Positions 1 through 64,000 of a DNA stretch of 64,000 bases are shown piece after piece. The position numbers were made by a program, and so were the translations under genes. Below the pieces are notes generated by a model, which did not search any database, was not told the origin of the DNA, and worked only from the letters and a program-made list of their open reading frames with translations. Numbering within the stretch: the stretch's first letter is position 1; every line of letters begins with the position of its first letter. The stretch comes from a virus (Duplodnaviria > Caudoviricetes): IMG/VR virus record IMGVR_UViG_3300042199_000463, positions 1 to 64,000 of that record; one strand, given 5' to 3'.

Positions 1-239
1 GCTGGCAAGTTAACTGTCACCGCACCCGCAACAGACAAATCCGTCACAACAGTGCAGTCAGTTGACGCCGACACAGTGACAGGAGAAGTCGTCGCAACTC
101 GAATCGCCTGTTTCATTTCCTCAGAAACTGCAGCGTTGTTTCCGACGTCGATCAAAAACGCGGAAAGAGATGACCAGTTTAATTCGCCCGCCGCGGGCAC
201 GCTATAAGTTGTTCCGTTGAAAGTGACTGAGGTACTAAT
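1..239 (-). CDS. Phage 2 virion structural protein, N-terminal part (runs off the window edge); apparent ATT start
   Basis: Manual translation: (I/M)STSVTFNGTTYSVPAAGELNWSSLSAFLIDVGNNAAVSEEMKQAIRVATTSPVTV, Thr/Val/Ser-rich. GGAGG lies 5 nt upstream of ATT at 239; directly downstream of the capsid gene. Confidence 0.65.
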   Translation of the reverse strand, partial: MSTSVTFNGTTYSVPAAGELNWSSLSAFLIDVGNNAAVSEEMKQAIRVATTSPVTVSASTDCTVVTDLSVAGAVTVNLP

Positions 240-259
240 GGGAGCCTCCAAGAAATATG

Positions 260-283
260 AGAGGAGCGGTTGCCCGCCCCTCT
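260..283 (-). terminator. Stem-loop after the phage 2 capsid gene (terminator/attenuator candidate)
   Basis: Minus strand AGAGGGGCGG-GCAA-CCGCTCCTCT: 10-bp stem with one G-U pair and a GNRA loop, followed by CATATTTCTT. Confidence 0.6.
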
Positions 284-298
284 GTTAACTTTGTTATA

Positions 299-1621
299 CT
301 ATGATGCGCTTTCGTCGTTAACACCGCTCCATAGCAAGCTACGAGCTGGTGCGTGGCAGAATACGTACTGATCAGAGAATGTACGGAATGCGTAGGCAGC
401 TTGATTTTCCAGAGGATAGATCAAGTCCTTGTCAACGCCTGGTACGCTCATGCTGATTTCAGCAGAACCTGAACGGCTCCAGTCAGCAGCGTGCAGTCCG
501 AATACGTCGCCTTCCATTACCATGCGGTGCGATTTGATAACCGCTTTACCAGCTTGGTGATAGAATACGATCGCTTCAGAACCGTTGTCCGCTTCGTTTG
601 TCTTGTACGAAGAATCGTACATACGCTTAGCAGCTTCAGTGCTGATCAATGTGCCCCATGTGCGTGGGTTAACGTAGATGTTCAAATCGCCGTCAAGTCC
701 GCCACGGTTTACGGCTGCTGCAACGCCAGTTTGCAAGCGGTCGAAGGTAAACTTAACACTGTTAAGTGCTACGCTGTTGCCTTTCCACAAGCTGTACTGT
801 GTATTGCTGATGCCAAACAAGCTAGAGCTGCTGCTCAAAATCTTGTGAACGCCCATTGCGTCCTTAGCTGTTTCCATGCCGTCGAAGCACAAACGGTGCG
901 ACGATGTGGAAGATGCCGCTACTGGTACGAAATCGACGACTAGCACGCCCATGTCAGCGTCAACGCCGACAAGCTTACCTTCAGCAACGACAACGCCGGA
1001 GCTGTTGATTTGCTTAACGATCGCGCCTTCGGAGCCAACCCAGATTCCTGCTGCAAAGTCGCCTGGCTTGAGGAGAATCATCTTTTCAGATGTGTTCACG
1101 CCGTTTGTGAATGCAACGGACGAGCCGTTAACAGTCAAAGAGCCAGTTCCGTTTGTGAATGCTACGCCGCGATATGTTGCGGTTGCATACGAAACGTAAC
1201 CAAGCTTTTTGTCAGCTTGACCGTACAAGCGAATGATTTCCAAAAGCTTTCCGTGTGACTTGAGGTTGTTCTTGACTATGTGCTTTGTTCCAGAAACGAA
1301 AGCTTTTTCGCCGCCGCCTGCAGAACGAGACAAAACAGTCCACGGCACTACGGACGCCAAAACTGTTGGCGAAGGTGTTACTGTGGTTTGCTTTACCGCA
1401 CCTGCGATAGCTGGATTAAGTTCAAACGCGTCGTTTGATCCGAGTGTCCAACCAGTTTCAGCAGTAAGAATTACCGCTTCAGAGTAGCTTTCGCCGACTT
1501 TTTGCTTTTCGGTGAATGGAATGTCTTTTTGCAACATGTAATCTTCTGGCTGAAGATCGTTGATGTTGCCGTAAACTTTTTTAAACAGATTTACTACATC
1601 TGCGCTTGATACTTGACTCAT
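299..1621 (-). CDS. Major capsid protein of phage 2
   Basis: 440 aa; follows the scaffold-like gene; capsid-like size and composition (LFKKVYG N-terminus, LNIYVNPRTW segment). Call rests mainly on context. Confidence 0.8.
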   Translation of the reverse strand: MSQVSSADVVNLFKKVYGNINDLQPEDYMLQKDIPFTEKQKVGESYSEAVILTAETGWTLGSNDAFELNPAIAGAVKQTTVTPSPTVLASVVPWTVLSRSAGGGEKAFVSGTKHIVKNNLKSHGKLLEIIRLYGQADKKLGYVSYATATYRGVAFTNGTGSLTVNGSSVAFTNGVNTSEKMILLKPGDFAAGIWVGSEGAIVKQINSSGVVVAEGKLVGVDADMGVLVVDFVPVAASSTSSHRLCFDGMETAKDAMGVHKILSSSSSLFGISNTQYSLWKGNSVALNSVKFTFDRLQTGVAAAVNRGGLDGDLNIYVNPRTWGTLISTEAAKRMYDSSYKTNEADNGSEAIVFYHQAGKAVIKSHRMVMEGDVFGLHAADWSRSGSAEISMSVPGVDKDLIYPLENQAAYAFRTFSDQYVFCHAPARSLLWSGVNDESAS

Positions 1622-1650
1622 GTTTTATCCCTTCCTTGGGTTAAAAATTG

Positions 1651-2151
1651 TTACTTGGATTTCCAGATGATCTTGATTGCAATGGTTCCAGCGGTCAAAG
1701 CGTCGAAGTCCGGTGTGTTACCGAAATCAACTTTGAATCCGATGTTGCCACTTGCGCCTAAAGCAACTTCAGTTGCTAAGGTCGATGCGGTCAACGCCGA
1801 GCTGTCTTGTACAAGTTTTTCAACTAGCGTCGCGCCGCCGGTGCCGCTGTAGCACTTAGCAGACATGTACAAAACTTCTTTGGCTTGGCCAGCCATGTTG
1901 ATCACGCCGCCGAATGCGTCTGCACCCATGCTGGTCGCGTCAAATGCTGCAAGCAAAAACTCGTTTGTTGTGCCAAGGAAGCTGTCGATCACGGCTTGCG
2001 ATGCAAAAGCATCGAACGTGTGAAGAACAGGCATTGCTTGGATTTCGGTTGCCGTTTTTGCGGCTGTGATGTTGAAAACAAGGTCAAGTTCACGGCTTTC
2101 ACCGCGTTGTACCTTCTCGTTCCAGTACATAAGAGAAACATTGGATGACAT
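1651..2151 (-). CDS. Putative head decoration/cement protein of phage 2
   Basis: 166 aa, Ala/Thr-rich, between scaffold and capsid genes. Confidence 0.5.
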   Translation of the reverse strand: MSSNVSLMYWNEKVQRGESRELDLVFNITAAKTATEIQAMPVLHTFDAFASQAVIDSFLGTTNEFLLAAFDATSMGADAFGGVINMAGQAKEVLYMSAKCYSGTGGATLVEKLVQDSSALTASTLATEVALGASGNIGFKVDFGNTPDFDALTAGTIAIKIIWKSK

Positions 2152-2164
2152 TTTAAACTCCTAG

Positions 2165-3088
2165 TTATGCAAATTTTTGTTCAAGTTTATCGAAAAAATC
2201 GTCTGTTGAAATCTTTGTCGGTTTTCTCGCCGCCGTAGTGGTGGGCGTTACCTTCTGAGGTTTAACAGTTCCAGAAGTTACCTGATCAACAAAATACTTA
2301 CGGATAGCATCGACGTATGTTTTCGGTAGCTTTGTAAGTAAATCCTCAACTTTGGTAGCTTCGATACGGCTTAGAAAATCTTTTTCCGACTGCGCTAAAA
2401 CGTACTCAAGAGCTTCTTTAGCCGTAATGTCTTTGTTGCCTTTTTCACTTGTTAAGTGAGCCAGCATGTATTGTGCGACGTTTTCGAGGATTGCTGGATT
2501 AGGTTTTAAACCTTTTTCCTTCAGTACTTCGGTCAACGTCGTATCAATTTCTTGAATCTGACTTAATTTTAGTTTCTCAGTCTCAGCTTTTGCAAGTTCT
2601 TCTTTTTGTTTTGCTTCTTGTTCTGCATAGAACTTGGTTCTAGCCTTTTCTTCGTCCAGCTCTTTTTGGAGCTTGTACGATCTTTTCTGATCCTCATTCA
2701 TCATCTCAAATTCTATCTTTTTCAGTAACCTTTGCTCGGCGATTTCGTCTGGATCGAATCCACTTTCTTGTGCTACTTCCCAGAAATTTTCTTTAAGCTT
2801 TTTTTGGTAATCAGCTAACTTCTTCTCTGATTCCTTAGCTTTTCGCTCGATCTCAGCGGCTTTCTGAAACTTCAAGTCAGCGGCACGCTCTTTTTGATAG
2901 TGCTTAACAAGGTCTTCAACGCTTACTTCTTCTTCTTTATCGTAAATCTTGGCTTTGACCTTAGCTTTTTGGTCGGCATAAATTGCCGCCTCTTTTGCTT
3001 CGGTCTTTTTCTTCTCAGGATCACCCGCACCTGTGACATTCGGCGTTGCGTCTAGCGGTCCGCTCGCTTCGGTTGCTGCTGCTTCCAT
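2165..3088 (-). CDS. Capsid scaffolding protein of phage 2
   Basis: 307 aa, highly charged coiled-coil (E/K/A/Q), low-complexity ends, upstream of the capsid gene. Confidence 0.75.
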   Translation of the reverse strand: MEAAATEASGPLDATPNVTGAGDPEKKKTEAKEAAIYADQKAKVKAKIYDKEEEVSVEDLVKHYQKERAADLKFQKAAEIERKAKESEKKLADYQKKLKENFWEVAQESGFDPDEIAEQRLLKKIEFEMMNEDQKRSYKLQKELDEEKARTKFYAEQEAKQKEELAKAETEKLKLSQIQEIDTTLTEVLKEKGLKPNPAILENVAQYMLAHLTSEKGNKDITAKEALEYVLAQSEKDFLSRIEATKVEDLLTKLPKTYVDAIRKYFVDQVTSGTVKPQKVTPTTTAARKPTKISTDDFFDKLEQKFA

Positions 3089-3099
3089 TGTAGAGCCTC

Positions 3100-3483
3100 C
3101 TATTCAAAAAGGATTAAAAGTTGCACTTTCCGACTCTCTGTTGGAGCGTCGGTAAACTTGATTTTGACTATAAGCTGGCCTTGATTGTTCAAAAACCACG
3201 TGATTCCGTCGATGCCAGACGATGTGCTTAGGACGCGCAAAGGAATTACGCCACTTGGACGCTTTCCAGACGTGGAAATCTGCGTTTCTGTATCGTGTTT
3301 TAGCGTGGATTCTGTAACAAGGCAGTTGAAGTTATCTTGGAACGTGAGCCCGTTCCGTAATGCGCGCAAAACCTGATCGCTCACGTCGTTTAAAAACGTG
3401 AGAGCTTCCTGAAGCTGTTGGCCCGCGTCCGTTGCGACCAATTTAGAGACTTCTAAAAGCCTCTGAATGCTTAGTTTTGCCAT
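3100..3483 (-). CDS. Small virion protein of phage 2
   Basis: 127 aa in the head operon with LRNGLTFQDNF motif; co-oriented and tightly packed. Confidence 0.5.
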   Translation of the reverse strand: MAKLSIQRLLEVSKLVATDAGQQLQEALTFLNDVSDQVLRALRNGLTFQDNFNCLVTESTLKHDTETQISTSGKRPSGVIPLRVLSTSSGIDGITWFLNNQGQLIVKIKFTDAPTESRKVQLLILFE

Positions 3484-3490
3484 ATGCTCA

Positions 3491-4939
3491 TTATTTTCGG
3501 AAAGTTCCGAAGGACTTTACATTAAAGTTACCAGAAAAGTCATTGGAAAACACCTTAGGCTGGATAGATTCAGCAACAGTGACCATAGGCGGCTTTGCGA
3601 TCTGCTTAACGAACGCGAGGTTTTGATCCATGTAGTAGGTCGGAAGCGGCGAGGTGCGGTCAACCATGCGTAGGCCATAACTCAGAGCTGCCAAGGCGTC
3701 ACAGTGTCCCAATATGTCACTGCGGGCAAAGTCTGTGCGCTTGTCGTTATACTGGCCTGAGTCGAGGGATTGAATCAAAAACGCGCATCTCGGATGTACC
3801 AGCACTTGATCGGTCGCGAACATGACTTGCATGTTGTTGATTCCAGATTGCCAGTCGTCTTTTCGCGGCACACGGATCGAGAACTTGTGCGAGCGTTCAA
3901 GGTCAATCTGTAGCTGCCCTGGCGCGTCGGCCCATCGTGCCGTGATCTCGTGCCCGTACGCAACGGCTTCGGCTTCCATCTGCAGCACACCTTGCACAAT
4001 GTCGGTCGTCGGTGTGTTAGCAGGGAATATGCGCTCGTCACGAATCAAAATCTTGTTCTCAAGAAAGTCGTAACAAAACAAAATCGCTGCTGTCTTGTCG
4101 CGCACGCCACCAAAGTCGATGCTAACTTGCCAGTTTCCATAGTCAGGAATGCGGAAATCTTTAACGTGTTTGTCCTGATTAAATGTCGGCACGATGATAA
4201 TCGACTCATCACGCACGATCTGTGCAAGGTACTCACGACGCCATGCTGCAGAATCCTCGCCGCCGCATAGCTTTTTAGCTTTTTCGATCTGTTCTTCTGT
4301 GATCTGTGGATTGTCATAAATGGTGTAACGGAACAGCGCGTTATTCAGCGCTGCCTTGGGCAAAATGTCTGTATGCAGCACGTGCGATGGATCGGATGAC
4401 GGCGAGCTGATGTGAACAAGTCGCCCACTTGAGCGCAAAAGCTGCGGCCCGATAACTGATTCGACTGCATAACGGTAATCGTCTGACGAAATAAATCCAG
4501 CTTCTTCTGTGATGATTAGCGACGCGTTACCGCCACGGTTATAGTCCACGTTTGCGCGTTCTAGCGGCCCAAGGCGCAACGTCGAGTCGCCCACTTTCCA
4601 GCGGTACGTGGTCTTGTGACGCTCTATTAGCCCCGCAGGAGCGTCTTTTGTGATCGGCGCAAGGTTGTCGTTTACGATGTCTTGAACCTGTTTGAGCGTC
4701 GGGGCGAGAATGCGCACAATTGAGCCTGGATGCTTAATGCAGTATTCGAGAGCGTACACGACGCCGTAGAATGACTTTCCAAGCTGGCGCGACGACAAGA
4801 TACAGATTTCGTCTGATGTGGACGCTTCAACAGAGTCGTGCATTTTGCGCTGTGTGCTGTGCAGCTTCCATCTCAGGTCGCCACGACGCCACATGTAGTC
4901 TTTTAGTTCGTTTTTATGGACGAATTCTTGTTTTTCCAA
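3491..4939 (-). CDS. terL: Terminase large subunit of phage 2
   Basis: 482 aa; Walker A SSRQLGKS, Walker B IITEEAG, coupling motif ISSP, nuclease acidic motifs SIDFGG and HCDALAA; TTG start. Confidence 0.92.
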   Translation of the reverse strand: MEKQEFVHKNELKDYMWRRGDLRWKLHSTQRKMHDSVEASTSDEICILSSRQLGKSFYGVVYALEYCIKHPGSIVRILAPTLKQVQDIVNDNLAPITKDAPAGLIERHKTTYRWKVGDSTLRLGPLERANVDYNRGGNASLIITEEAGFISSDDYRYAVESVIGPQLLRSSGRLVHISSPSSDPSHVLHTDILPKAALNNALFRYTIYDNPQITEEQIEKAKKLCGGEDSAAWRREYLAQIVRDESIIIVPTFNQDKHVKDFRIPDYGNWQVSIDFGGVRDKTAAILFCYDFLENKILIRDERIFPANTPTTDIVQGVLQMEAEAVAYGHEITARWADAPGQLQIDLERSHKFSIRVPRKDDWQSGINNMQVMFATDQVLVHPRCAFLIQSLDSGQYNDKRTDFARSDILGHCDALAALSYGLRMVDRTSPLPTYYMDQNLAFVKQIAKPPMVTVAESIQPKVFSNDFSGNFNVKSFGTFRK

Positions 4940-4975
4940 GGCACTAGCTCCACTGATCTTCCGAAGAAGGTACAG

Positions 4976-5191
4976 TTATGGCTGTTTAGGATTTTCTCTT
5001 ATGCGCCACCAAAAATGTCCAGACAAAAGTCAGCCTATAAATGGCACCATAGGATGCGCGTAACTCCATGACAAGATAAGATGACTTATTGTTCCTTCAG
5101 TGCCGCCTTCTGTGTAGGCATACACGTCGTATAGCGCAAGAACAACGATAGTAACCATGACAACGACAGATATAAGTTTTCGAATGTTCAT
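4976..5191 (-). pseudogene. Small membrane protein interrupted by an in-frame TGA (copy 1)
   Basis: MNIRKLISVVVMVTIVVLALYDVYAYTEGGTEGTISHLILSWSYAHPMVPFIG*LLSGHFWWRIRENPKQP*; TGA at 5030-5032 falls inside the second hydrophobic segment; ATGA overlap with the upstream gene. Confidence 0.6.
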
Positions 5192-5694
5192 AAAGTCTCG
5201 CTCAAAGGAAGTCCAAGATAAGTTTCGATTTTATTTACGAATGCTAAGAGCCTATTAGCCGTAACGTATTTTTCGTCATACTCAGAGGTTGGTGTCGCCC
5301 TAATACGAGTGATTGCCTCGTATAGCGAACCCGCCTGCAATGCTAGCTGAACGGAAGCCAGCTTTGTTAATACTTGTCCTGTCTTGCCTTCTGTAGTGAT
5401 ACCGAGAAGCACGTTTTCAGCGGCATAGTTGATCAATAGTTGATTGCCGAACTGGATTGCGTTTTTGATAACGCTAGAAACATAGGCATGTGCTGTGTTT
5501 GGGACGTGCGAACTAATGGCGGTTTCTACCGAAGCTTGCTCAAAAAGAGTCAAAGATACTCCAGCATGCACCGTTATATCGGTGCCTGATGTCGAGACTC
5601 CGGAGATACTCGTAGGATTAACTGCCAGGATTTCCCCAATAAGTTGCTCGGGAAGATACGAAGTGCTCCTAGTGTAAGAGTAATCTGGCATCAA
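5188..5694 (-). CDS. Hypothetical protein of the shared cassette (168 aa)
   Basis: Co-oriented, overlaps neighbours; identical to 45907-46413. Confidence 0.7.
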   Translation of the reverse strand: MMPDYSYTRSTSYLPEQLIGEILAVNPTSISGVSTSGTDITVHAGVSLTLFEQASVETAISSHVPNTAHAYVSSVIKNAIQFGNQLLINYAAENVLLGITTEGKTGQVLTKLASVQLALQAGSLYEAITRIRATPTSEYDEKYVTANRLLAFVNKIETYLGLPLSETL

Positions 5695-6185
5695 GCTATC
5701 CTAACAATGATGATTGACCGCATATTACCAGTCAAAGTTTTCCCGCCAGTGGTGTTCCAGCGGAGAGTTAGCACATCACTAGTTATTAGCGTGGTGATAA
5801 TCCCTTGAGAATACATCATCCCCTGGTTGCCCCCTGTAAAAAAGGAAGCATTGGTGCCTGTTATCAACGTGCCATTTTTATAGAGCCCGATTACTGGCGT
5901 ACCATCGCCGCCTGAACTTGACGCAGAAAATGCCAACGTCCCAGTTATAAGGTATGTCCCGCTCAATAAAACGGTTAGAGACATGGAATTGATAGCGACT
6001 GGGGTGTTGGAAGATGTGGTTGTTGAGGATGTTGCCGCTATTTGTTGATACGACAGCGACCCAGAAAGTATAGATTGTTTAGCTTCCTCGATGGCTGCCT
6101 GAACCGTAGTGGAAGCGAACCCGTTCGTCGAGTTGTCAAATGCCGTGATGCTAGCACTTGCTGTGCGCTTTAAATTAAAGCTCAC
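5691..6185 (-). CDS. Putative virion accessory/fibre-like protein (164 aa)
   Basis: Ser/Thr/Gly-rich beta-type sequence (GTYLITGTLAF); identical to 46410-46904. Confidence 0.65.
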   Translation of the reverse strand: MSFNLKRTASASITAFDNSTNGFASTTVQAAIEEAKQSILSGSLSYQQIAATSSTTTSSNTPVAINSMSLTVLLSGTYLITGTLAFSASSSGGDGTPVIGLYKNGTLITGTNASFFTGGNQGMMYSQGIITTLITSDVLTLRWNTTGGKTLTGNMRSIIIVRIA

Positions 6186-6504
6186 GATTCACCCACATAC
6201 TGAATGTCGCTGTAGATGAGTTTGTGCGTAGGAAGATTTGCTGTTTCGATTTGGGGGTAATCTCTAAAGAATCGCCAGGTCCAAGCGAAGTATAGTTTGT
6301 TCCTGCGTTATCCAGAGCCACCCAAATGCGAATGCCCCCTGAAACATCTCTGTCATTTTCTACGACAACGCTTTGGATATTGGTGGTTGCTGTTGTTGGG
6401 TATGCTGTCCAGGTTGTTGTAGCAGTGCCGCGAATGACTGTGGTCGTGCCGTCCGTTGTCAGCACTTCCGAGAACACATCCCCAGCTGAAAATCCGCTGC
6501 CCAT
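6175..6504 (-). CDS. Small beta-rich virion accessory protein (109 aa)
   Basis: Thr-rich, resembles the 123-aa, 104-aa and 338-aa C-terminal domains; identical to 46894-47223. Confidence 0.6.
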   Translation of the reverse strand: MGSGFSAGDVFSEVLTTDGTTTVIRGTATTTWTAYPTTATTNIQSVVVENDRDVSGGIRIWVALDNAGTNYTSLGPGDSLEITPKSKQQIFLRTNSSTATFSMWVNREL

Positions 6505-6827
6505 TATTTCTTCCCTGGCTTACCTGGGTTGTATGCCTTTATCTTAACGTCACCCAAGCCGGGAAGTCCCGGCTCAGATGGTTTAGATTCTACCGGAACC
6601 GAAGGGGGCACAAGCTCCCCTTCAGGCTTTTCAGAAGGTTTCTGAGAGAAAGCTTTAGCCATATCCTGCACTAAGTTTTGGAGCCAACGAACAGCGTCAC
6701 CGCTTCTCGTCAGATCTTTCCACCCAACCGAACACTGAACCGTGTTCATGAGCGTGCTAAGTTGGTGCATGTGCCGTAAATCTTGCTCTGAAACTTCTGA
6801 AACTTTCATGCTTATGCAAACTCCCAA
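6504..6827 (-). CDS. Hypothetical protein with Pro/Lys-rich tail (107 aa)
   Basis: Co-oriented in the cassette; identical to 47223-47546. Confidence 0.65.
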   Translation of the reverse strand: MGVCISMKVSEVSEQDLRHMHQLSTLMNTVQCSVGWKDLTRSGDAVRWLQNLVQDMAKAFSQKPSEKPEGELVPPSVPVESKPSEPGLPGLGDVKIKAYNPGKPGKK

Positions 6828-7828
6828 ACCATTACGTCTTTGCCAGCGGCGTTAGCAACACCATAAACCAAGTTAGCTGGGCCAACGTCCAAAGAAACGA
6901 ACCCGCCGTCACCAATCTTAAATCCGCGTGTTGAGCCTGTGTTGGTCACTGTAGCAGATCCAAGGTACAACGATCCACTCGAAAGCATTTGAATCATCAT
7001 GGATGATCGGTTGCTTAGCGAAGTAGCTGGAAGCTGTACTGCGGATGTGCCCACAGTAACGATTTGTTGCAAGTTAGAAGACGCCGCAACGTCTTTAACG
7101 TACTGCGCACCTTTGATGTCAACCGCGAAACCAGAGTAATCACCGTTTGCCGAGGTGAGCGACGTTGCTTGATTGTCGTTACGGACACCCAAGGAGAAAC
7201 TACCCACGTTTCCTGAAACGTGTGCACTGTCTTCAGCATAGTTATCACCGATAGTGATCGACGCTGCTACTTTCAATTCACCGTTTGCATTCACTTGCAA
7301 TGGCGAGAAGTCCCCGTCAGCAACACCGGTCAAAGGGCCGGATGCGTCTTTGCGAACGGCCAACGCTTCAATACCCATCGATCCCGCTGCCCAAACGGAG
7401 CCATCTGCATAGTCCAAGCCTTCAAGAACTGCTTGAATTGCGGAAAGTGCTGTATTTGCTCCGGTGTCTTTTACGTACAATTCACCGAGGTTGTTGCTCT
7501 TGAACGAGCCGTAGTCACCGTCAGCCGATGTGCTGGCAGCAAGTGTGTCTTGACGAACTAAGAGAGCTTGTATGCCCATATCGCCGGACGAATGTGCGCT
7601 GTCTTCAGCGAAATCTAACGCCTGAAACAACGACAAAATGGAGGCAAGTGTAGTTTCGGTAGCCGCACCAGTTGGCAAGGCCGACCCAGTGACGTTGACG
7701 TCCATGCTAGTGCCGGTAGCGGTGATAACCGTTCCGCCTGCAATTACGTTAGCACCAATGTTGTCGCTATTAGCGACATCTGCACTGTCGAAAACGATCT
7801 TAGTTTTACCCGCGCCTGTCTGAGACAT
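6812..7828 (-). CDS. Repeat-containing virion accessory protein (338 aa)
   Basis: Three internal AEDSAH-SG-type repeats plus a C-terminal beta domain; homologue at 47531-48547. Confidence 0.7.
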   Translation of the reverse strand: MSQTGAGKTKIVFDSADVANSDNIGANVIAGGTVITATGTSMDVNVTGSALPTGAATETTLASILSLFQALDFAEDSAHSSGDMGIQALLVRQDTLAASTSADGDYGSFKSNNLGELYVKDTGANTALSAIQAVLEGLDYADGSVWAAGSMGIEALAVRKDASGPLTGVADGDFSPLQVNANGELKVAASITIGDNYAEDSAHVSGNVGSFSLGVRNDNQATSLTSANGDYSGFAVDIKGAQYVKDVAASSNLQQIVTVGTSAVQLPATSLSNRSSMMIQMLSSGSLYLGSATVTNTGSTRGFKIGDGGFVSLDVGPANLVYGVANAAGKDVMVWEFA

Positions 7829-16867: not shown

Positions 16868-16868
16868 G

Positions 16869-54443: not shown

Positions 54444-54449
54444 GATGTA

Positions 54450-56095: not shown

Positions 56096-56133
56096 GTTAA
56101 ACAAAGTCCACTAATTTATGGGAGCATGTGTAT

Positions 56134-57004: not shown

Positions 57005-57063
57005 GCTTGACCTTCAGCGAACAAAGTTTTACAAACACGAACCACTTCACAGGAGATTATATC

Positions 57064-57627
57064 ATGAGTGATACGGACGTACAGAAGCAAAAGACACCTT
57101 TGCATCAAGCGGTACTTGACCTTGCTGCAGTTTGTCAGCAAATCGACGAATCCGCCGATATTACAGACGTCTTGATCAAAACACTTGGCGAGTTGAAACA
57201 GGGGCTAGTGACTGCAGTTGACAGAAACATTTTGTTTGAAAAGTCGCTAAAAGCGCAAATTGCGACGGCCAAGGAAATGAAAGACAGTTGGACGCACAGG
57301 CAAAAAGTTTTGGAGTCCGTAAAAGAAAGCCATTCAGGTTATATGCTCGCCGCAATTGCAAGCTCAGGCGGTTTGCCGTTTAAGGGAACACAAGGCGAGA
57401 TTCGCGCTCAGGCGTCGCCGCCAAGTATGGAGCTAACGATCAAAACTGATCGCCGCTCGTTTGAGACAATTACGGCTCAGGACGCTGAAACGATTCCGCT
57501 AAAATACATTACCGAGACGACGCTACTAAGTTTGAACAAAGACGCTATTCGAGAAGATTTGCAGAATGGCGTTGAGTTGTCGTTTGCGAAATTAACACGT
57601 GGTCGCCACATAAGAATCTATATTTAA
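57064..57627 (+). CDS. Siphovirus Gp157-like protein
   Basis: N-terminal coiled coil; C-terminal LNKDAIREDLQNGVELSFAKL...IRI pattern. Confidence 0.7.
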   Translation: MSDTDVQKQKTPLHQAVLDLAAVCQQIDESADITDVLIKTLGELKQGLVTAVDRNILFEKSLKAQIATAKEMKDSWTHRQKVLESVKESHSGYMLAAIASSGGLPFKGTQGEIRAQASPPSMELTIKTDRRSFETITAQDAETIPLKYITETTLLSLNKDAIREDLQNGVELSFAKLTRGRHIRIYI

Positions 57628-57638
57628 AGGAGTTTGAA

Positions 57639-58274
57639 ATGGAAACAGGCGTAACAGTAGTGGAAACATCATCGGCACGTCCCATGTTGGATTTGCCATA
57701 TCATGAAAAGATCGCCGCAGCTTCGGGAATGGCAAATCTTTTGAATACGATCATTAGAAAGCAGAAGTTCTTTCAAGTGATCCAAGGCAAAGAATTTGTC
57801 AAAGTAGAAGGTTGGATCACGCTTGGCAGTTTGCTTGGCATTACGCCGCGAGAAAAGTCTGTGACAGAACTTCCTGACGGTAGTTACATTGCAGAAATTG
57901 AACTTGTTCGCGTTGATACAGGTAGAATCATCGGCGGCGCATCGGCTCTTTGTTCAGTCGATGAAAAGCGTTGGGGTAATGCAGACAAATATGCTAGAAG
58001 ATCAATGTCGGTAACGAGAGCAACAGGCAAAGCGTACCGCATATCATTTGGCTGGATTATTGGGCTCGCCGGTTTTGAGACTTGTAATGCCGAGGAAATG
58101 CCAGAATCCCCAACCCAAGAAGACGTCTATACAGGCACGCCAGAACAAAAGTCAAAACTCACAGCATATCTAAAAACTGCAGGATTTGACGACGAAAAGA
58201 CGCAATCTGTTTTGACGAAAATGGTCGGAAAAACAAAAGACAAACTACCAGAGGTAATGCGTGATTTGCAGTAA
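57639..58274 (+). CDS. Putative single-strand annealing recombinase
   Basis: SMSVTRATGKAYR...GLAGF...AEEM motif; next to the Gp157-like gene. Confidence 0.6.
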   Translation: METGVTVVETSSARPMLDLPYHEKIAAASGMANLLNTIIRKQKFFQVIQGKEFVKVEGWITLGSLLGITPREKSVTELPDGSYIAEIELVRVDTGRIIGGASALCSVDEKRWGNADKYARRSMSVTRATGKAYRISFGWIIGLAGFETCNAEEMPESPTQEDVYTGTPEQKSKLTAYLKTAGFDDEKTQSVLTKMVGKTKDKLPEVMRDLQ

Positions 58275-58381
58275 CGAGACACTTTACTTGTCTGTTAAGC
58301 TGCTGGCTGTGATCGGAGCTTTTTCTCTGATCGCCGCTTGTGGCGTTTTTATGTTTTGTCTTTTTTCTAGGAGACTTAAAA

Positions 58382-58549
58382 ATGAGATTTCTAATTCTCA
58401 TATTTCTAGCTAGTTGCGCTCACAATGAGTCGGTTACAAAAGAAGAATACGAACTTTTTCAGGCGCGTTTTAGCGGCATTTATTCCAGACTTGATCAATG
58501 TGAATTTGAAATCAGAGAGCTGAAAAATATTATTGCGGAGCATGACTGA
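58382..58549 (+). CDS. Small putative lipoprotein (55 aa)
   Basis: MRFLILIFLASC lipobox followed by a coiled coil. Confidence 0.65.
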   Translation: MRFLILIFLASCAHNESVTKEEYELFQARFSGIYSRLDQCEFEIRELKNIIAEHD

Positions 58550-58910
58550 TGAATGGAAAGCAATCCAAATGGCTAAGAAAAAACTGCAAAAAACTAGGCT
58601 CAAATTACAAGAATGCTAAAAAGCAATTTAAGACTTTGACGCATATTCAAAAGGGAAAGCTTAAAAAGGAAATGGAGAGATAATGGCTTGGCGTCGCATA
58701 ACCACTAAGGTTATTGAACTTGTCCGTGAAAACACGGATTTACTTATTACAACTTTTTCAGATTCAAACTTGATTAAGATAGAATTTGTACCGCATCAAG
58801 AATTTCAGTGGTCATTTATTACTGAGATACGAGAATGAACATAGCTGAACTAAAACAAATCGCTGAAAGCTGCTTCGCCAATCCGTCCGATAACAACCGG
58901 ATGTCTTGAG

Positions 58911-59129
58911 ATGAGTGACGAATACTGCACAAGATGTGAGCGACCATTTTCAGTCACAGAAGTTAATATGTTGCGCGATTACGAAAAGCAGAAAAAGGAA
59001 ACTATGCGATTTCAAGCCGCAGTTTCAGCAATGTCCGCGTTGATTTCCGCTGGTGCGACTAATTTTGAAAAGTGCGCGAGTGATGCAGTGCTTCACGGAG
59101 ATGCACTTTTAGCGGAGCTAGAGAAATGA
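58911..59129 (+). CDS. Hypothetical early protein (72 aa)
   Basis: CTRC motif; AAVSAMSALIS...AVLHGDALLAELEK helix pattern. Confidence 0.65.
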   Translation: MSDEYCTRCERPFSVTEVNMLRDYEKQKKETMRFQAAVSAMSALISAGATNFEKCASDAVLHGDALLAELEK

Positions 59130-59485
59130 GCACGATTGAGCGATTGAAAGATTTGTACAGCAAGTCCACTCAGGGGAAGTGGTTTGTTTCGCATGATTAT
59201 TCTTCAGAAGAACCGATTGTGAAAACAGATTCGTATTCTGGAGAATGGTATCGTGGAAACATCGCTATGATTGTTTATGATGGATTGTCTGATTGGGAGA
59301 GGCCAAGCGCAAGTGCGGATGCGGAGTTGATTGCTGAAATGCGTAACGCCTTACCGAAACTACTGGCCGTGGTTGATGCGGCGAAAGAATTCAATCTGGC
59401 GATAATAGACGGAGCTGATGGATTATATGTCGGTCATGAGGAAGTTCTTACGTTGATAGCAGCGTTGAGAGAATTGGAGCGTTAA
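59126..59485 (+). CDS. Ead/Ea22-like modular early protein (119 aa)
   Basis: STQGKW...DAELIAEMRNALPKLLAVVDAAK...ALRELER. Confidence 0.7.
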   Translation: MSTIERLKDLYSKSTQGKWFVSHDYSSEEPIVKTDSYSGEWYRGNIAMIVYDGLSDWERPSASADAELIAEMRNALPKLLAVVDAAKEFNLAIIDGADGLYVGHEEVLTLIAALRELER

Positions 59486-59673
59486 TGGCTGAATCATCGC
59501 AACAGCGTTACGAACGAAGTAAAGAACTAGATAACCGCATTTCTGAGCTGGAGCAAAAACTCGCCATCGCTCGTGAGGCTTTGAAAAAAATAGGCGAGTT
59601 GAGTGTCGATAGAGTAGATCGACTTTATGCAAATGACGTTGCGCGAGCTGCGCTGGAGAAATTGAATGATTGA
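59485..59673 (+). CDS. Modular small early protein (62 aa)
   Basis: ELEQKLAIAREAL...ARAALEKL shared with 36976-37209. Confidence 0.7.
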   Translation: MAESSQQRYERSKELDNRISELEQKLAIAREALKKIGELSVDRVDRLYANDVARAALEKLND

Positions 59674-59766
59674 TTGGTTACTACGCCATTACCGCCCGAT
59701 TACTGTAACAACGTGGATTGTGTTGGTGGTTTATTTTTTAGTTTTCGGGGGCAAACTGATTTTTGG

Positions 59767-60021
59767 ATGGCCAAATTGATCAACATCGAACTCCCAATTC
59801 AGCCGATCGACAAAGCTACATTCTCTCTTGAGGATTTGGCGGAGTATTTGGCTCACGCTGTCGATGAAACGCAAGGTCAGTTTTTCAATGAGTTTGTTCA
59901 GCGGTTAAGAATGTGCTGTCAACCGCACATGGGCTGGCAGATGCAAGGGTTAATGCTTAAGAAGTATCTGAACGATGATGCGAAAGACTTTTTTAATTTT
60001 GTGGGAGTGGATGATGTTTGA
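59767..60021 (+). CDS. Homologue of 37415-37660
   Basis: Near-identical N- and C-terminal thirds. Confidence 0.7.
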   Translation: MAKLINIELPIQPIDKATFSLEDLAEYLAHAVDETQGQFFNEFVQRLRMCCQPHMGWQMQGLMLKKYLNDDAKDFFNFVGVDDV

Positions 60022-60127
60022 CTGGCTAGTTCATCTTTATCGACCGAAAAATGTAATAGAATGGATTGCGCTGGTTATTTATTTTCTGCTTATAGGTTCT
60101 ACACTTATTTTTAGGTGGGAAAAGTGA
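60014..60127 (+). CDS. Hydrophobic micro-protein (37 aa)
   Basis: MFDWLVHLYRPKNVIEWIALVYYFLLIGSTLIFRWEK. Confidence 0.5.
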   Translation: MFDWLVHLYRPKNVIEWIALVIYFLLIGSTLIFRWEK

Positions 60128-60240
60128 TTGTCTCAATACTAGACTGGCTTATAGGCAGACTTCCCGCATGGTCTGCTACTTTGGTAGTTTTCTCATTGAT
60201 ATATGCACTCATTCACCTTTTATATTGGATTCTTAAATGA
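60124..60240 (+). CDS. Hydrophobic micro-protein (38 aa; GTG start)
   Basis: MIVSILDWLIGRLPAWSATLVVFSLIYALIHLLYWILK; GTGA and ATGA overlaps on both sides. Confidence 0.5.
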   Translation: MIVSILDWLIGRLPAWSATLVVFSLIYALIHLLYWILK

Positions 60241-60452
60241 CCACTAACCCCAACGATCCATTAACCGCGCACAATCTAAAGCACTTCGCAGCGATTGCGG
60301 CACTAAACGGCATAATCTCTCATGAAGGCGCACCCGCGAAAGACAATTTAGATTACAAATCAGTCGTCGAAAATGACGTCGTTCGCGCCATCGACTATGC
60401 AGATAAACTTGTGGAATTGTTGCACGTGGAACAAGAGGTTAGTGAGCGGTAA
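60237..60452 (+). CDS. Homologue of 38655-38849
   Basis: Shared PNDPLTA...HEGAPAKDNLDYKSVVEND. Confidence 0.75.
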   Translation: MTTNPNDPLTAHNLKHFAAIAALNGIISHEGAPAKDNLDYKSVVENDVVRAIDYADKLVELLHVEQEVSER

Positions 60453-60906
60453 CCAAGCTGCCGCCCTCAGCTCTAACAAAAGAGCTAGTGAATTAACACT
60501 TAGCTTTCTTCTTGCCGGTTTTTTTAACCGATTTCTTTGGCTTCGCCATGAGCGACTCCTTATTAAATTGTAGCATGATTGCTCTAATTACATTGAAGGT
60601 TGTTTTTATGTTCAAGTCAATAAAAAGATTCATAGGAAAGTTCAGACTTCCTATCGTTGTCAAGAGAACGGAAAACTACATTCAGATTTGTTTGTTTCGC
60701 AGCATGTTTACAAGCTACAAGAAAAGAAAAAAGAGAATACGGTGAAGTCATCGTATTCTCTCTAGGACATGAATTGGTCGCACAGTTATTCTACTTTAAC
60801 AGCGAGCGATTCTGCAACGGCTGCGACAAGTTTGTCGTCGAGAGCGTTTGATGTTTCTTTCGCCAAGGCGTGCAATCCATAAACAATCACTTTCGAGAAG
60901 AAGGCT

Positions 60907-61122
60907 TCAGAAGCCAGTTTCCATAGAAGACCCATCATAAGCTTTGCAAGAGCTTGTGCCATCATTTTTTGTCTCCAAATTCCTGATTTTGTAAAATGCC
61001 GCGTCGATGTCTTTTCGCATTTTGAAAATTGCTTTTATGGCCCATAGCGCGCCTGAACCCATCGCTCCTAAAAGCATCAAAAGTGCGCCTGTTACGATGT
61101 CTTTTAGTTCAATGACGTCCAC
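60907..61122 (-). CDS. Membrane-anchored small protein (holin/XhlA-like architecture)
   Basis: TM segment followed by MRKDIDAAFYKIRNLE coil. Confidence 0.5.
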   Translation of the reverse strand: MDVIELKDIVTGALLMLLGAMGSGALWAIKAIFKMRKDIDAAFYKIRNLETKNDGTSSCKAYDGSSMETGF

Positions 61123-61499
61123 AAAATCCCTACCAGCAAGCCCAAAATTGCAAACATTACATAGTAAAGTTTCGCAGGGATTTTGATCGTTGTAAATACA
61201 GTGACAGGTTTTGCGTCAGGAACTTTGACCATGATCTCAGGTTGCCGCACTTCGATTTTGAAGTCTTTCGACGCAATCTTTTCCAGAGTGGTGCGAATTA
61301 AGGCTAATTCGTCCGCGAAAACTTGGAATTTGTCGTCGTCTTGTAGCGTTTTGGCGAGCTGTTTTAGTTCTTCGCTCATTTCGTGAACGGCGGCGAGCAT
61401 GTGCGGCTCGCCTTCAAGTTGCACGCGCACGCGGTCGATAGTCGCGGAAATGCTGGCTTCCGTGGTGCCGCCTTTGCCGACGTCTGAAAAACTAGCCAA
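61104..61499 (-). CDS. Coiled-coil protein with C-terminal TM segment (131 aa)
   Basis: C-terminal LYYVMFAILGLLVGILW. Confidence 0.6.
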   Translation of the reverse strand: MASFSDVGKGGTTEASISATIDRVRVQLEGEPHMLAAVHEMSEELKQLAKTLQDDDKFQVFADELALIRTTLEKIASKDFKIEVRQPEIMVKVPDAKPVTVFTTIKIPAKLYYVMFAILGLLVGILWTSLN

Positions 61500-62559
61500 T
61501 GCGCACCGCCCAGATTTCGCCCTTATGACGTGGCGTGCCTGACGTGTAGTCGAATTTGCTGTTTAGGTAATAGGTCGTCGTGCTAGATAGCGTTACGAGC
61601 TTAGGCGGAGCTGAAAACTGTGGATTTTCGCCTGAAATCATCTGATAGGCGTGACGTGAAAAGTCAAATGTGCCCACGTTTGAGCCGTTCGATGTGTCAG
61701 ATAGTCCTGCGGAAACGCCTTGGGTTAAAACCGCACCGTTTTCCTCAAAAGCTAGTACGCCGTAAATGATCCATAGGCCCGCTGTGACAGATAAGGACGT
61801 GACCGAACCATACGAGCCAGACGCCGCGACTCCGGTTGCTGTAAACGTCGCCTGAGATGCTTGCAGCTTTTCGCCAATCTTACCTGTACTTGGCGAAAGT
61901 CCGTCTGTACGTGCCGTTAATGCGTCTGTATTGAGTGTTTGAAACGACTTGTCGCCACGCCAAAACTGCGACGTGGTTCCAGACGTGATAGCTGGTTCTT
62001 TGCTGTTAAACGTAGTCCAGTCTGCAGAATCGAGGAACCCGTCAGTCGAGCCGTTCGCTTGCGGTATGGCAATCGTGCGGTCAGCGGACAAATCGCCGCC
62101 GCCTGTGATCGGAGCTGTCGTATTGATAGCCCGTGACGTCGAAACTTTATTGTTAAACGTAGTCCAGTCAGCGGATTTTAGGACACCGGTTTGTGAGCCA
62201 GATGCTTCCTCGATAACGGTACGTATCCCGTCCGCCTGAATGGAATTTGTGGCCTTGAAAAATCCTGCACCCGCCGCCGCTGCAGATAGCTTTAGGTCAG
62301 CAGTTAAAACGCCGCCCGTTACGGTCAAATCGACCGAATTTGTGTCGTTTACCGCGACACTTGCAAGCTCAGTGTCGATCGGATCCCAGACGTCGGACGT
62401 AACCGTGTAAACGACACCTGTATCAAGTGTGAGTCTGATCGTTCCGTCAGGATCTCCGCTCGGTAAAGCAGCAAAGTTTGCTACGGGATCACCGAAATAC
62501 GCCGATCCACCGCCGCCGGAAGTCAGACAACAGGAAATTTCTAAATATGTGCCAGCCAT
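61492..62559 (-). CDS. Tail fibre-like protein of phage 2 (355 aa)
   Basis: Two SADWTTFN(N/S)K repeats, TTAPITGGGDLSADRTI fibre motif, beta-rich C-terminal head. Confidence 0.8.
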   Translation of the reverse strand: MAGTYLEISCCLTSGGGGSAYFGDPVANFAALPSGDPDGTIRLTLDTGVVYTVTSDVWDPIDTELASVAVNDTNSVDLTVTGGVLTADLKLSAAAAGAGFFKATNSIQADGIRTVIEEASGSQTGVLKSADWTTFNNKVSTSRAINTTAPITGGGDLSADRTIAIPQANGSTDGFLDSADWTTFNSKEPAITSGTTSQFWRGDKSFQTLNTDALTARTDGLSPSTGKIGEKLQASQATFTATGVAASGSYGSVTSLSVTAGLWIIYGVLAFEENGAVLTQGVSAGLSDTSNGSNVGTFDFSRHAYQMISGENPQFSAPPKLVTLSSTTTYYLNSKFDYTSGTPRHKGEIWAVRIG

Positions 62560-62571
62560 ATCGTAACTCTC

Positions 62572-62901
62572 TTAGAAGCGGTTTGTTGGCTCTTTCAAAA
62601 CTGCAGTAGCGGTCATCGTGCCAGTTCCAGAGCTTGGAACCCACTTAACACGGTAGTACATATAGTTACCGCCGCTCACGTTATAAACGTGGGATGCGCC
62701 AGATGCGATCGACTGCGACGTGCCAGAAATGGTCACATAGTTCACGTTCGTGTTCGACGCCTCAAGTGTGAGCGTGCCGTTCAGTGTTCCAGAGCTGAAA
62801 TCAATCTGTACGCTGTATTCACGCTGATCGCCGATGTTTACACCGATTGACGTTTGTGTTACGGCGGCATTTGCGGCACTTAGTAGTTGGTCGATTTTCA
62901 T
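62572..62901 (-). CDS. Small beta-sandwich structural protein (109 aa)
   Basis: YSVQIDF...GTLTLEASN...YYRVKW, similar to 49269-49616. Confidence 0.6.
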   Translation of the reverse strand: MKIDQLLSAANAAVTQTSIGVNIGDQREYSVQIDFSSGTLNGTLTLEASNTNVNYVTISGTSQSIASGASHVYNVSGGNYMYYRVKWVPSSGTGTMTATAVLKEPTNRF

Positions 62902-64000
62902 TTGTTCTCCTTATTGAGATATTTTTGAGCGAGCATTTTTGCTTCGTCAAATTTGTCGCTGTGAATCAATTCTTGAAACATTCTATATTGTTCCGTGGGC
63001 ATTGCATTATAAAGAAAGTCGTCAAGTTTGCGGTACGCCGAGGATGTGGCCTTGTTATTCATTGTTGGGTCTTTTTTTAGCATACCGGCAAGATTGTCGA
63101 ATTCGTCGATTTTGGGCACGTCATCAGCCTGATTTTTGATGAAATCTAGCTTTCTGGAAATGGCCTGGCTTTTCGGATCGTATTTTTCACGAATCTGATT
63201 AGCCGCTTTCATGAGCGTTTCTTCACTTTCTTCAGGATTCAGCTTTCTAAGGGCGTTATAGGCTTCTTTTAAATTTCCTTTTTGAAACATTCTGATGACG
63301 ACAAGAGGGATAGCGATTCCGGCCATGCCCACTTGCGCAAGTCCTGACGCGTCAAGCGCATCGGCTGCGTACTTGTATGGGCCTTCTTTTGGTGTCATCG
63401 TGCTTTCTGCGACGGCTTTTGCGTACTCTGGATCGGAATTCATCAAAAGATGATGTTGCACGACTAGACTTTCATATCCTGACGCGCCCGCTGCGGACAA
63501 AATTTGTCCCCATTTTTGAAACTTTTCAGGATTTTTCGTAAGCATATTTTTAACAGCATTTGCCGATCTTGCCGCGAATGCCGAACCGCGCTCACGAATC
63601 AGCTTGTGACCTGCGCCAGCGGCACCGGCCATTAGCATCTTGTCAACAGTATCTCCGCCCGATCCTAGTCCGCCCATCGTCGCCGCGATGTAGTCTGTTG
63701 GCGAAATCTGACGATTGCTTGCGTCTTTTAGAGCGCGCTCAGTCGATGCCGCTGCTAAGTTTTTATACTGGCCGTACTGCTTTTTCATGGGTATGAATTG
63801 TTCAAGAGCTGATTTTGCTTCTTCTGGAATCCATGAAGCACGTGACGCGGCGTCAACGGCGTCGTCAATCGCTTTGGTGTGAATTCCATAAAGCTTGTTC
63901 GTTACGTCTTTGTTGCTGACAAGCATATCTGGAGTTTGTGGCTCGAACTTGAACATGTTCTTGCGTTTCAAAGCTTCTTCAAACGTGAGCGAACGTCCTG
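62898..64000 (-). CDS. C-terminal part of an internal virion protein of phage 2 (5' end outside the window)
   Basis: Frame is open to the window edge; Gly/Ala-rich segment and HHLLMNSDPEY motif. Confidence 0.6.
   Translation of the reverse strand, partial: GRSLTFEEALKRKNMFKFEPQTPDMLVSNKDVTNKLYGIHTKAIDDAVDAASRASWIPEEAKSALEQFIPMKKQYGQYKNLAAASTERALKDASNRQISPTDYIAATMGGLGSGGDTVDKMLMAGAAGAGHKLIRERGSAFAARSANAVKNMLTKNPEKFQKWGQILSAAGASGYESLVVQHHLLMNSDPEYAKAVAESTMTPKEGPYKYAADALDASGLAQVGMAGIAIPLVVIRMFQKGNLKEAYNALRKLNPEESEETLMKAANQIREKYDPKSQAISRKLDFIKNQADDVPKIDEFDNLAGMLKKDPTMNNKATSSAYRKLDDFLYNAMPTEQYRMFQELIHSDKFDEAKMLAQKYLNKENK

What the first reader, a model, noticed from the sequence alone, without database searches (positions are those of the whole stretch)
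1..64000. A complete 40.7-kb phage nested inside a second, unrelated phage via a 1.9-kb identical repeat (figure-8 / co-integrate)
Seen: two TerL genes, two capsid genes, two scaffolds and two replication modules, with no evident similarity between the two sets. The 40,719 bp between the repeat copies carry one full gene set whose late operon reads through when 5002 is joined to 45720. Removing it joins phage 2 TerS to the cassette and then to TerL. Inference: this is what one crossover between two circular genomes sharing a cassette would give. It is also what an assembler gives when it walks through a shared repeat. If real, it is an integrase-free phage-in-phage intermediate; 64+ kb would probably not fit either capsid.
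Basis: partly seen in the sequence, partly recalled or inferred. Interest (0 to 1): 0.8.

Follow-up and report, generated by a model that had tools for sequence, protein, structure and literature searches.

The report
Two phages joined by assembler walk
The "phage inside a phage" is most likely an assembly artefact: two separate phages from the same samples share an identical 1.9-kb gene cassette, and the assembler walked through it twice, so only the shared cassette is real biology.

Summary
The sequence is as described. An exact 1,900-bp direct repeat (5002-6901 = 45721-47620) continues at about 87% identity to 8506/49225. It brackets a full 40.7-kb phage gene set, and a second phage (about 36 kb) lies outside it.

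The nesting is probably not physical.
- In sibling metagenome assemblies the repeat is a stand-alone 1,900-bp contig (11 samples).
- The phage-1 part is a separate 39,073-bp contig. It is 100% identical to the window and ends exactly 127 nt inside the repeat at both ends, as a k=127 graph edge would.
- Three independent contigs, 100% identical to the window, cross the whole repeat on the parental path phage 2-repeat-phage 2.
- Close relatives of each phage lie on contigs of 38,985 and 42,424 bp.
- Eighty relatives of the phage-1 capsid gene never exceed 47 kb.

One 3.8-kb contig hints at a recombinant joint, but it is ambiguous.

The cassette itself is real. Its best-studied protein weakly resembles a virion spike or fibre, and both lineages carry it in different positions. 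This is ordinary phage mosaicism.

The parts
1..5001 (-). Phage 2, left arm (P2L). Genes: TerL 3491-4939, 127-aa 3100-3483, 307-aa 2165-3088, 166-aa 1651-2151, major capsid protein 299-1621, and the start of a fibre gene that runs off the contig.
   Evidence: TerL matches phrog_2 at E 1.9e-25. The 440-aa protein falls in Atlas MCP clusters. Logan contigs L012-L018 are 100% identical and stop 30 nt inside the repeat.
5002..6901 (-). Exact repeat R, copy 1. It holds genes of 53, 168, 164, 109 and 107 aa and the last 30 codons of the 338-aa gene. The left edge lies 28 nt beyond the stop codon of the 53-aa gene.
   Evidence: 100% identical to 45721-47620. It equals the stand-alone 1,900-bp contigs L025 and L026, found in 3 + 8 samples.
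6902..8506 (-). Diverged half of the cassette, phage-1 version (A). It holds most of the 338-aa gene, the 104-aa gene and the 123-aa gene.
   Evidence: About 87% nt identity to 47621-49225, with mostly synonymous differences. It is contiguous with phage-1 tail genes in L028 and L029.
8507..45720 (.). Phage 1 unique part. Genes: TerL 28136-29728, MCP 23483-24721, tail fibre 18792-20507, NlpC/P60 17426-17860, SU10-type adaptor 13579-14271, DUF5906 primase-helicase 33370-34935, SNF2 helicase 39883-41331, PolA 42900-44741, PD-(D/E)xK-type endonuclease 45020-45484.
   Evidence: Family matches. JGI contig Ga0485323_000169 (39,073 bp) equals window 6775-45847 at 100%.
45721..47620 (-). Exact repeat R, copy 2.
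47621..49225 (-). Diverged half of the cassette, phage-2 version (B). It holds the 338-, 104- and 115-aa genes.
   Evidence: L019, L020 and L023 join B, R and P2L at 100% identity.
49226..64000 (.). Phage 2, right arm (P2R), which continues to 75,217 outside the window. Genes: DUF5681 (TerS-like) 49617-49988, ParB-N6/N4 methylase 49995-51188, Toprim primase-helicase 51942-54443, ResIII/DEAD helicase 54569-56104, Gp157 57007-57627. Beyond the window lie the P22-type portal (68183-70144) and ejection or tail genes.
17860..18696 (-). Second stretch shared by the two phages: a 310-aa gene, 81% nt and 91% aa identical to the gene at the contig's right end (74379-75215).
37043..38833 (+). Small early genes that share 79-91% nt patches with phage 2 (59540-60415).

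Best explanation
The 75-kb record is a chimeric walk through a short-read assembly graph, not one molecule.

Two distinct podovirus-like phages co-occur in the same sample series. Phage 1 is 40.7 kb and phage 2 is about 36.4 kb. Both natively carry a cassette of about 3.5-4 kb of small virion-type genes, and 1,900 bp of that cassette is identical in the two.

In a de Bruijn graph the identical stretch collapses into one edge, R. The rest of circular phage 1 then forms a loop that leaves R and returns to it. The phage-2 sequence enters R on one side and exits on the other. A repeat resolver that takes the loop once writes P2L-R-A-P1-R-B-P2R, which is exactly this contig.

Shown here: the graph elements, the parental phage-2 path, and the genome sizes typical of each lineage. 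Inferred: that the resolver, not a DNA molecule, made the joints P2L-R-A and P1end-R-B.

The real biology is the cassette. It ends the late operon in the phage-1 lineage. In the phage-2 lineage it sits between the DUF5681 (TerS-like) gene and TerL. It recombines often at or near its edges. Its 338-aa protein has three internal repeats of about 50 aa and a C-terminal jellyroll that weakly resembles a phage spike receptor-binding domain. I therefore take the cassette to be a host-adsorption or virion-surface module exchanged between phages of one host. That functional step is inference.
For: (1) The two copies are identical to the base over exactly 5002-6901, next to DNA that is about 87% identical. 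The same 1,900 bp stands alone as contigs L025 and L026 in 3 + 8 samples.

(2) JGI contig Ga0485323_000169 (39,073 bp, at least 2 samples) equals window 6775-45847 at 100%. It ends 127 nt inside R at both ends, which is the signature of an unresolved k=127 edge. L037 shows the same end in another sample.

(3) Logan k=31 contigs of P2L (L012-L018) and of the phage-1 end (L031, in 8 samples, and L033) stop 30 nt inside R.

(4) The parental phage-2 path crosses all of R at 100% identity to the window: L019 (51055->3626), L020 (48334->2081) and L023 (48197->4886), from three samples.

(5) The same path occurs in strains and relatives from other studies: L010/L011 (R 99.7%), L002, L009 and L034. 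L010 also joins the two contig ends through 1,888 bp of fibre gene, so phage 2 closes on itself without phage 1.

(6) Relatives of phage 1 (L005 from a 43.5-kb contig, and L008) run tail genes-cassette-78/154-aa genes. In L005 the convergent PolA follows on the same contig.

(7) Relatives at 90% or more protein identity lie on contigs of 38,985 bp (phage-2 type) and 42,424 bp (phage-1 type). Exact phage-2 proteins are on 10-12 contigs and phage-1 proteins on 8.

(8) Eighty IMG/VR relatives of the phage-1 capsid gene lie on contigs of at most 47,062 bp, and none carries phage-2 genes in the stretch fetched around the capsid gene (up to 10 kb each side).

[quoted passage not shown] Shared unitigs between mosaic phage genomes are described in PMC10563150.
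Against: Depth and spanning reads, the direct test, are therefore missing.

No contig at high identity shows the parental phage-1 path (phage-1 end-R-A) across the whole repeat. That path is seen only in relatives.

L021 (JGI 3300042109, 3,775 bp) runs P2R-B-R and then 12 nt into the phage-1 end, which is the joint this contig has.

The nested form recurs. A sibling contig of 75,364 bp carries the same proteins, and 3 of 7 contigs with the R/phage-1-end junction gene are 50-200 kb long.

That SPAdes takes a two-edge loop once according to coverage is my recollection of its path extender. It was not checked here.
Confidence: 0.78

Rival explanations
1. A real co-integrate. One homologous crossover inside the identical 1.9 kb, between replicating genomes of the two phages in a co-infected cell, gave a circle or concatemer unit of about 77 kb. 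That molecule is abundant enough in the sampled DNA to be assembled.
For: The contig has exactly the two reciprocal joints that a single crossover gives. A 1.9-kb identical stretch is ample substrate for recombination. L021 shows B-R joined to 12 nt of the phage-1 end in another project. Nested contigs of about 75 kb occur in at least two sibling assemblies.
Against: The same graph elements give this walk without any such molecule. Phage 2 crosses R on the parental path at 100% identity in three samples. Phage-2 proteins occur on more contigs than phage-1 proteins. About 77 kb exceeds every contig of either lineage, which reach at most 47 kb, so it would probably not be packaged. L021 has another explanation: the phage-2-like L038 has a homolog of the phage-1 78-aa gene directly upstream of TerL. 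The recurrence comes from one assembler working on one community.
Confidence: 0.12
2. A genuine single phage genome of about 77 kb that stably carries two packaging, capsid and replication sets, or a prophage-like insertion of phage 1 into phage 2 as part of a life cycle.
For: Only the contig itself and its sibling of 75,364 bp.
Against: There is no integrase, att-type edge or tRNA. The edges are a homologous cassette and not a site-specific joint. Each half has its own full set and occurs alone elsewhere. No relative exceeds 47 kb.
Confidence: 0.03

Closest known systems
Chimeric contigs from co-existing viruses with shared regions in de Bruijn-graph assemblies (Roux et al. 2017, PMC5610896; Phables, PMC10563150)
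   Same: Two genomes share a stretch longer than the read and insert length. The stretch collapses to one edge, and the assembler's path joins parts of both genomes. In sibling assemblies the same edges stay separate.
   Different: Here one genome is taken in whole as a loop, so the product looks like a tidy nested insertion rather than an end-to-end join. The assembler's own graph and the read depth were not available to me.
Mosaic module exchange between tailed phages (Hendrix/Hatfull model; own knowledge, cited through PMC10563150)
   Same: A block of genes is 99.7-100% identical in otherwise dissimilar genomes. One edge is sharp and lies in an intergenic spacer. The block sits in different places in different lineages, and its 3' half is variable.
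   Different: The block lies between the TerS-like gene and TerL in one lineage. That is an unusual position, because these two genes are usually adjacent.
Co-integrates formed by homologous recombination between co-infecting phage or plasmid genomes (own knowledge)
   Same: A single crossover in a shared segment gives a figure-8 resolved into one circle with two hybrid copies of the segment. That is the topology written in this contig.
   Different: There is no physical evidence for the molecule here, and it exceeds the genome size seen in either lineage.
PM2 spike protein P1 receptor-binding domain (PDB 2vve), compared with the cassette's 338-aa protein
   Same: Residues 245-338 form a jellyroll that aligns at Z 9.8, rmsd 2.5 A, over 89 residues. 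The nearest Atlas cluster that has a Pfam family carries PRD1_P5_spike_N in 32% of its members, with a score of 0.86.
   Different: Sequence identity is 10%. Z is only slightly above the usual background of 7-8. The N-terminal 240 residues are modelled poorly (pLDDT about 45-65). No function has been tested.

Membership tests
Assembly chimera (repeat edge traversed twice) | The two repeat copies are identical to the base, and their limits coincide with a stand-alone graph edge in other assemblies of the same community. | tested here: met
   5002-6901 = 45721-47620 at 100%. L025 and L026 are 1,900-bp contigs with exactly these limits, in 3 + 8 samples.
Assembly chimera (repeat edge traversed twice) | In sibling assemblies, the unique parts end k or k-1 bases inside the repeat. 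| tested here: met
   The 39,073-bp JGI contig equals 6775-45847, with 127 nt inside R at both ends. Logan contigs end 30 nt inside R.
Assembly chimera (repeat edge traversed twice) | Each parental path across the whole repeat exists independently. | tested here: inconclusive
   Phage-2 path: yes, at 100% identity (L019, L020, L023). Phage-1 path: seen only in relatives (L005, L008), never at high identity across all of R.
Assembly chimera (repeat edge traversed twice) | Read depth differs between the two genomes, or no read or mate pair links the recombinant flanks. | not testable with these tools
Homologous-recombination co-integrate | Both reciprocal hybrid joints lie on one molecule, shown by reads or an amplification-free method. 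| not testable with these tools
   Only the contig shows them. L021 gives 12 nt of one joint and has another explanation.
Homologous-recombination co-integrate | The two halves are always present together at equal abundance. | tested here: not met
   L023 crosses the left edge of R into P2L with no phage-1 branch. Exact phage-2 proteins are on 10-12 contigs and phage-1 proteins on 8. This is indirect, since it counts contigs and not depth. It argues against a co-integrate-only population, not against a minority molecule.
Mosaic shared module between phages | Near-identical DNA in otherwise dissimilar genomes, found in independent genomes and in more than one context. | tested here: met
   R is 100% identical between the two phages and 99.7% identical in L010/L011, whose flanks are 86-97% identical. 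The cassette follows tail genes in L005 and L008, and follows DUF5681 in L002, L009, L019 and L034.

The most novel reading that the evidence does not exclude
The 77-kb molecule is real. It would be an integrase-free phage-in-phage co-integrate, made by a crossover in the identical cassette. It would persist as replicating DNA in co-infected cells at an abundance similar to the free genomes, recurrently across samples.
Probability: 0.1. Interest if true: 0.55.

Novelty: not a real feature. Interest (0 to 1): 0.15.

Why it matters
If the record is taken at face value, a database holds a 75-kb "virus" with two terminases, two capsid genes and two replication systems. That would distort genome-size, completeness and gene-content statistics and invite a false "phage nested in phage" story.

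The case also shows a clean, recognisable signature for this class of chimera. The repeat copies are identical to the base. The loop equals one full genome. Sibling contigs end k bases inside the repeat.

The real residue is modest but usable. Two otherwise different phages that co-occur in the same samples share a cassette at 100% identity, as well as a fibre end and a 310-aa gene. That points to a common host and to recent exchange of what may be adsorption genes.

Tried and rejected
I did not try another route to the reads.
- megablast of both halves against deposited phages found no match.
- The search for related loci with the 338-aa protein in IMG/VR found nothing.
- Exact look-ups of the 168-aa and 154-aa ORFs found nothing, probably because gene callers chose different TTG starts.
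- The one metagenome scan with a 32-mer from the middle of R gave only two contigs, both of phage-2 type.
- Pfam and PHROGs found no family for any cassette protein. A PDB sequence search also found nothing for the 338-aa protein.
- I expected the contig's right end to be an exact repeat of phage 1, which would explain the break. It is not: the last 127 nt hold many mismatches. The 1,888 bp missing between the contig ends does contain 218- and 264-nt exact matches to the phage-1 fibre gene in the strain L010. The ends themselves more likely reflect strain forks.
- SNPs inside R (6498, 6613, 6709) were tested as markers of phage 1 versus phage 2. They occur with both A-type and B-type flanks (L003, L021, L029), so they are not informative.
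- Promoter and terminator scans at the repeat edges gave no more sites than shuffled sequence.
- There are no tRNA genes in the window.
- Papers searched for the SPAdes loop rule gave no usable statement.
- The first structure job failed and was rerun.
- Look-alike stretches in other windows of this scan: none.
Full report
WHAT IS IN THE SEQUENCE

The window is the first 64 kb of a single 75,217-bp record. A direct repeat with a start-to-start spacing of 40,719 bp is present. The base-perfect part is 5002-6901 = 45721-47620, 1,900 bp. Homology does not end there. It runs on to 8506/49225 at about 85-95% identity per 200 nt, giving 3.5 kb at 94.4% overall. In that diverged part most changes are synonymous: in the 338-aa gene, 82 synonymous and 16 non-synonymous codons differ. 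Both versions are therefore under purifying selection. The left edge is abrupt. It lies in a spacer, 28 nt beyond the stop codon of the last called cassette gene (53 aa). It is 59 nt upstream of the phage-2 TerL start in one copy and 18 nt upstream of a 78-aa ORF in the other.

In what follows, R is the exact repeat. A (6902-8506) and B (47621-49225) are the diverged halves of the cassette. P1 is 8507-45720. P2L is 1-5001. P2R is 49226-75217.

TWO GENE SETS

Phage 1 (P1 plus one cassette, 40,719 bp) has these genes:
- TerL at 28136-29728, matching Terminase_6N.
- A capsid gene at 23483-24721, matching phrog_14242 weakly.
- A tail fibre with a Peptidase_S74 end at 18792-20507.
- An SU10-type adaptor at 13579-14271.
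- NlpC/P60, a DUF5906 primase-helicase, an SNF2 helicase and PolA, from precomputed Pfam on identical JGI genes.
- An endonuclease at 45020-45484.

Phage 2 has these genes:
- TerL at 3491-4939.
- A capsid gene at 299-1621, which falls in Atlas MCP clusters with TM 0.75-0.89.
- A P22-type portal at 68183-70144.
- DUF5681, a ParB-methylase, a Toprim primase-helicase, a ResIII/DEAD helicase and Gp157.

The scaffold genes were not verified.

The sets are not wholly dissimilar. A 310-aa gene is 91% identical in protein between them (17860-18792 versus 74379-75215). Several small early genes share 79-91% nt. Neither half resembles any deposited phage at the DNA level. The phage-2 portal is 40% identical to that of a 43.3-kb phage of Silvanigrella aquatica.

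IS THE NESTING PHYSICAL?

I therefore used independent assemblies that encode exactly the same proteins.

(a) The repeat as a graph edge. Contigs of exactly 1,900 bp that equal 5002-6901 occur alone in 3 + 8 samples, in both JGI and Logan assemblies (L025, L026).

(b) The phage-1 part as a graph edge. JGI contig Ga0485323_000169 is 39,073 bp. It equals window 6775-45847 at 100% and so ends 127 nt inside R on both sides. A second sample shows the same end (L037). That is what an unresolved edge of a k=127 graph looks like. It also shows that these are short-read assemblies, and a 1.9-kb exact repeat is beyond the usual insert sizes of such libraries (inference; the library type was not checked).

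(c) Logan contigs (k=31) of P2L (L012-L018) and of the phage-1 end (L031, in 8 samples, and L033) stop 30 nt inside R.

The graph in this community is therefore: P2L and the phage-1 end both attach to one side of R, A and B both attach to the other side, and P1 links A back to R. The only walk that uses every edge is P2L-R-A-P1-R-B-P2R, which is the contig. As I recall the SPAdes path extender, it inserts such a two-edge loop as many times as the coverage ratio suggests, which is once when the two phages are about equally deep. This is my own knowledge and was not checked. It would also explain why some sibling assemblies give the nested form and others leave the 39-kb edge alone. Of the 7 contigs with the R/phage-1-end junction gene, 3 are 50-200 kb and 3 are 20-50 kb. 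A sibling contig of 75,364 bp carries the same proteins as the window.

PARENTAL PATHS

Three contigs from three samples are 100% identical to the window and cross the whole of R as phage 2-R-phage 2:
- L019 covers 51055->3626.
- L020 covers 48334->2081.
- L023 covers 48197->4886.
Their only "mismatch" is the first base beyond the repeat edge.

Strains and relatives from other studies do the same:
- L010 and L011, in which R is 99.7% identical and the flanks 86-97%.
- L002, L009 and L034.

L010 also bridges the two ends of the 75-kb record through 1,888 bp of fibre gene. Phage 2 therefore closes on itself at about 36.4 kb.

For phage 1, relatives run tail genes-cassette-78/154-aa genes on one contig (L005 from a 43.5-kb contig, and L008). 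In L005 the convergent PolA follows as well. I found no high-identity contig that spans R on the phage-1 path, and this is a gap in the evidence.

SIZES AND CO-OCCURRENCE

Proteins at least 90% identical to phage-2 TerL and capsid lie on a 38,985-bp contig. Proteins at least 90% identical to phage-1 proteins lie on a 42,424-bp contig. Exact phage-2 proteins are seen on 10-12 contigs and phage-1 proteins on 8. Eighty IMG/VR relatives of the phage-1 capsid gene sit on contigs of at most 47,062 bp. Within the stretch fetched around that gene (up to 10 kb each side) they have only phage-1-type neighbours. A genome of about 77 kb is outside both lineages.

EVIDENCE THE OTHER WAY

L021 (JGI 3300042109, 3,775 bp) runs from P2R through B and R and then 12 nt into the phage-1 end. 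This is the only independent hint of a recombinant joint, and it is weak for two reasons. The contig is short and probably from low coverage. In addition, the phage-2-like L038 carries a homolog of that same 78-aa gene directly upstream of its TerL, so some phage-2 strains may naturally have R followed by this gene. L035 shows the converse mix: an A-type end of the 338-aa gene, then R, then a phage-2-type TerL. The cassette edges are thus recombination-prone in nature, which fits module exchange and does not need a co-integrate. The recurrence of the nested contig comes from one assembler working on one community.

THE CASSETTE

No Pfam, PHROG or PDB sequence match was found for any of its proteins. 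The 338-aa protein has more than 670 metagenomic homologs, many of which cover only about 63% of it. It has three internal repeats of about 50 aa (seen). Its C-terminal jellyroll is confidently modelled (residues 245-338, pLDDT about 80-95), and the rest is modelled poorly. The jellyroll's best solved match is the receptor-binding domain of the PM2 spike P1: Z 9.8, rmsd 2.5 A, 89 residues, 10% identity. Many uncharacterised phage proteins of 85-100 aa share this domain. The 3' half of the cassette varies between relatives, with genes of 402-697 aa replacing the 109/164/168-aa set. I read the cassette as a virion-surface or adsorption module. This is inference from weak structural leads and from its position after the tail genes.

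VERDICT

The nested phage is most probably an assembly artefact (0.78), and a real co-integrate remains possible (about 0.12). The shared cassette is real and is an ordinary, if neat, case of phage mosaicism. Chimeric contigs from co-existing viruses with shared regions are documented (PMC5610896; PMC10563150).

Noticed in passing
window 5002-6901, compared with L010 and L011: In phage-2 strains from other studies the 1.9-kb segment is 99.7% identical to the window, while the flanks on either side are only 86-97% identical. The segment looks more recently spread, or more strongly conserved, than the genomes that carry it.
   Followed up: partly
window 45466-45702, and L038:392-616: The 78-aa ORF that follows the cassette in phage 1 has a 48%-identical homolog directly upstream of TerL in a phage-2-like IMG/VR contig. 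This gene may travel with the cassette in some genomes.
   Followed up: partly
L035:2149-3630: In a phage-2-like contig, a divergent copy of TerL residues 1-181 (45% identity) is followed by residues 56-144 at 100% identity. This is either a partial duplication or replacement of the TerL 5' end, or another assembly join.
   Followed up: no
window 17860-20135, and the 1,888 bp missing between the contig ends (L010:9980-11867): The fibre genes and the 310-aa genes of the two phages share patches of up to 264 nt of exact identity (in strain L010) and 91% protein identity. This is a second shared host-recognition-type region, besides the cassette.
   Followed up: partly
window 6812-7828 (and 47531-48547): The 338-aa protein has three tandem repeats of about 50 aa with the motif AED-AH-SGD...VR-D...DGDY...G-L-V. 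It also has a C-terminal jellyroll that recurs as a stand-alone 85-100-aa protein in many uncultured phages. The neighbouring 115/123-aa protein shares that C-terminal motif (36-38% identity over 53 aa).
   Followed up: partly
window 49617-51188: A ParB-N6/N4 methylase fusion and a DUF5681 (TerS-like) gene sit upstream of the cassette. Eight cassette genes therefore separate the TerS-like gene from TerL in the phage-2 lineage. This order is conserved in L009, L011 and L019.
   Followed up: partly
window 36976-38833 and 59485-60415: Families of very small early ORFs share 79-91% nt patches between the two phages.
   Followed up: no
G000 68183-70144 (L001:4183-6144): The phage-2 portal (P22 type) lies far from TerL, behind a 1,012-aa gene. 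Its nearest deposited relative (40% identity) is in a 43.3-kb phage of Silvanigrella aquatica, CP017838.
   Followed up: no
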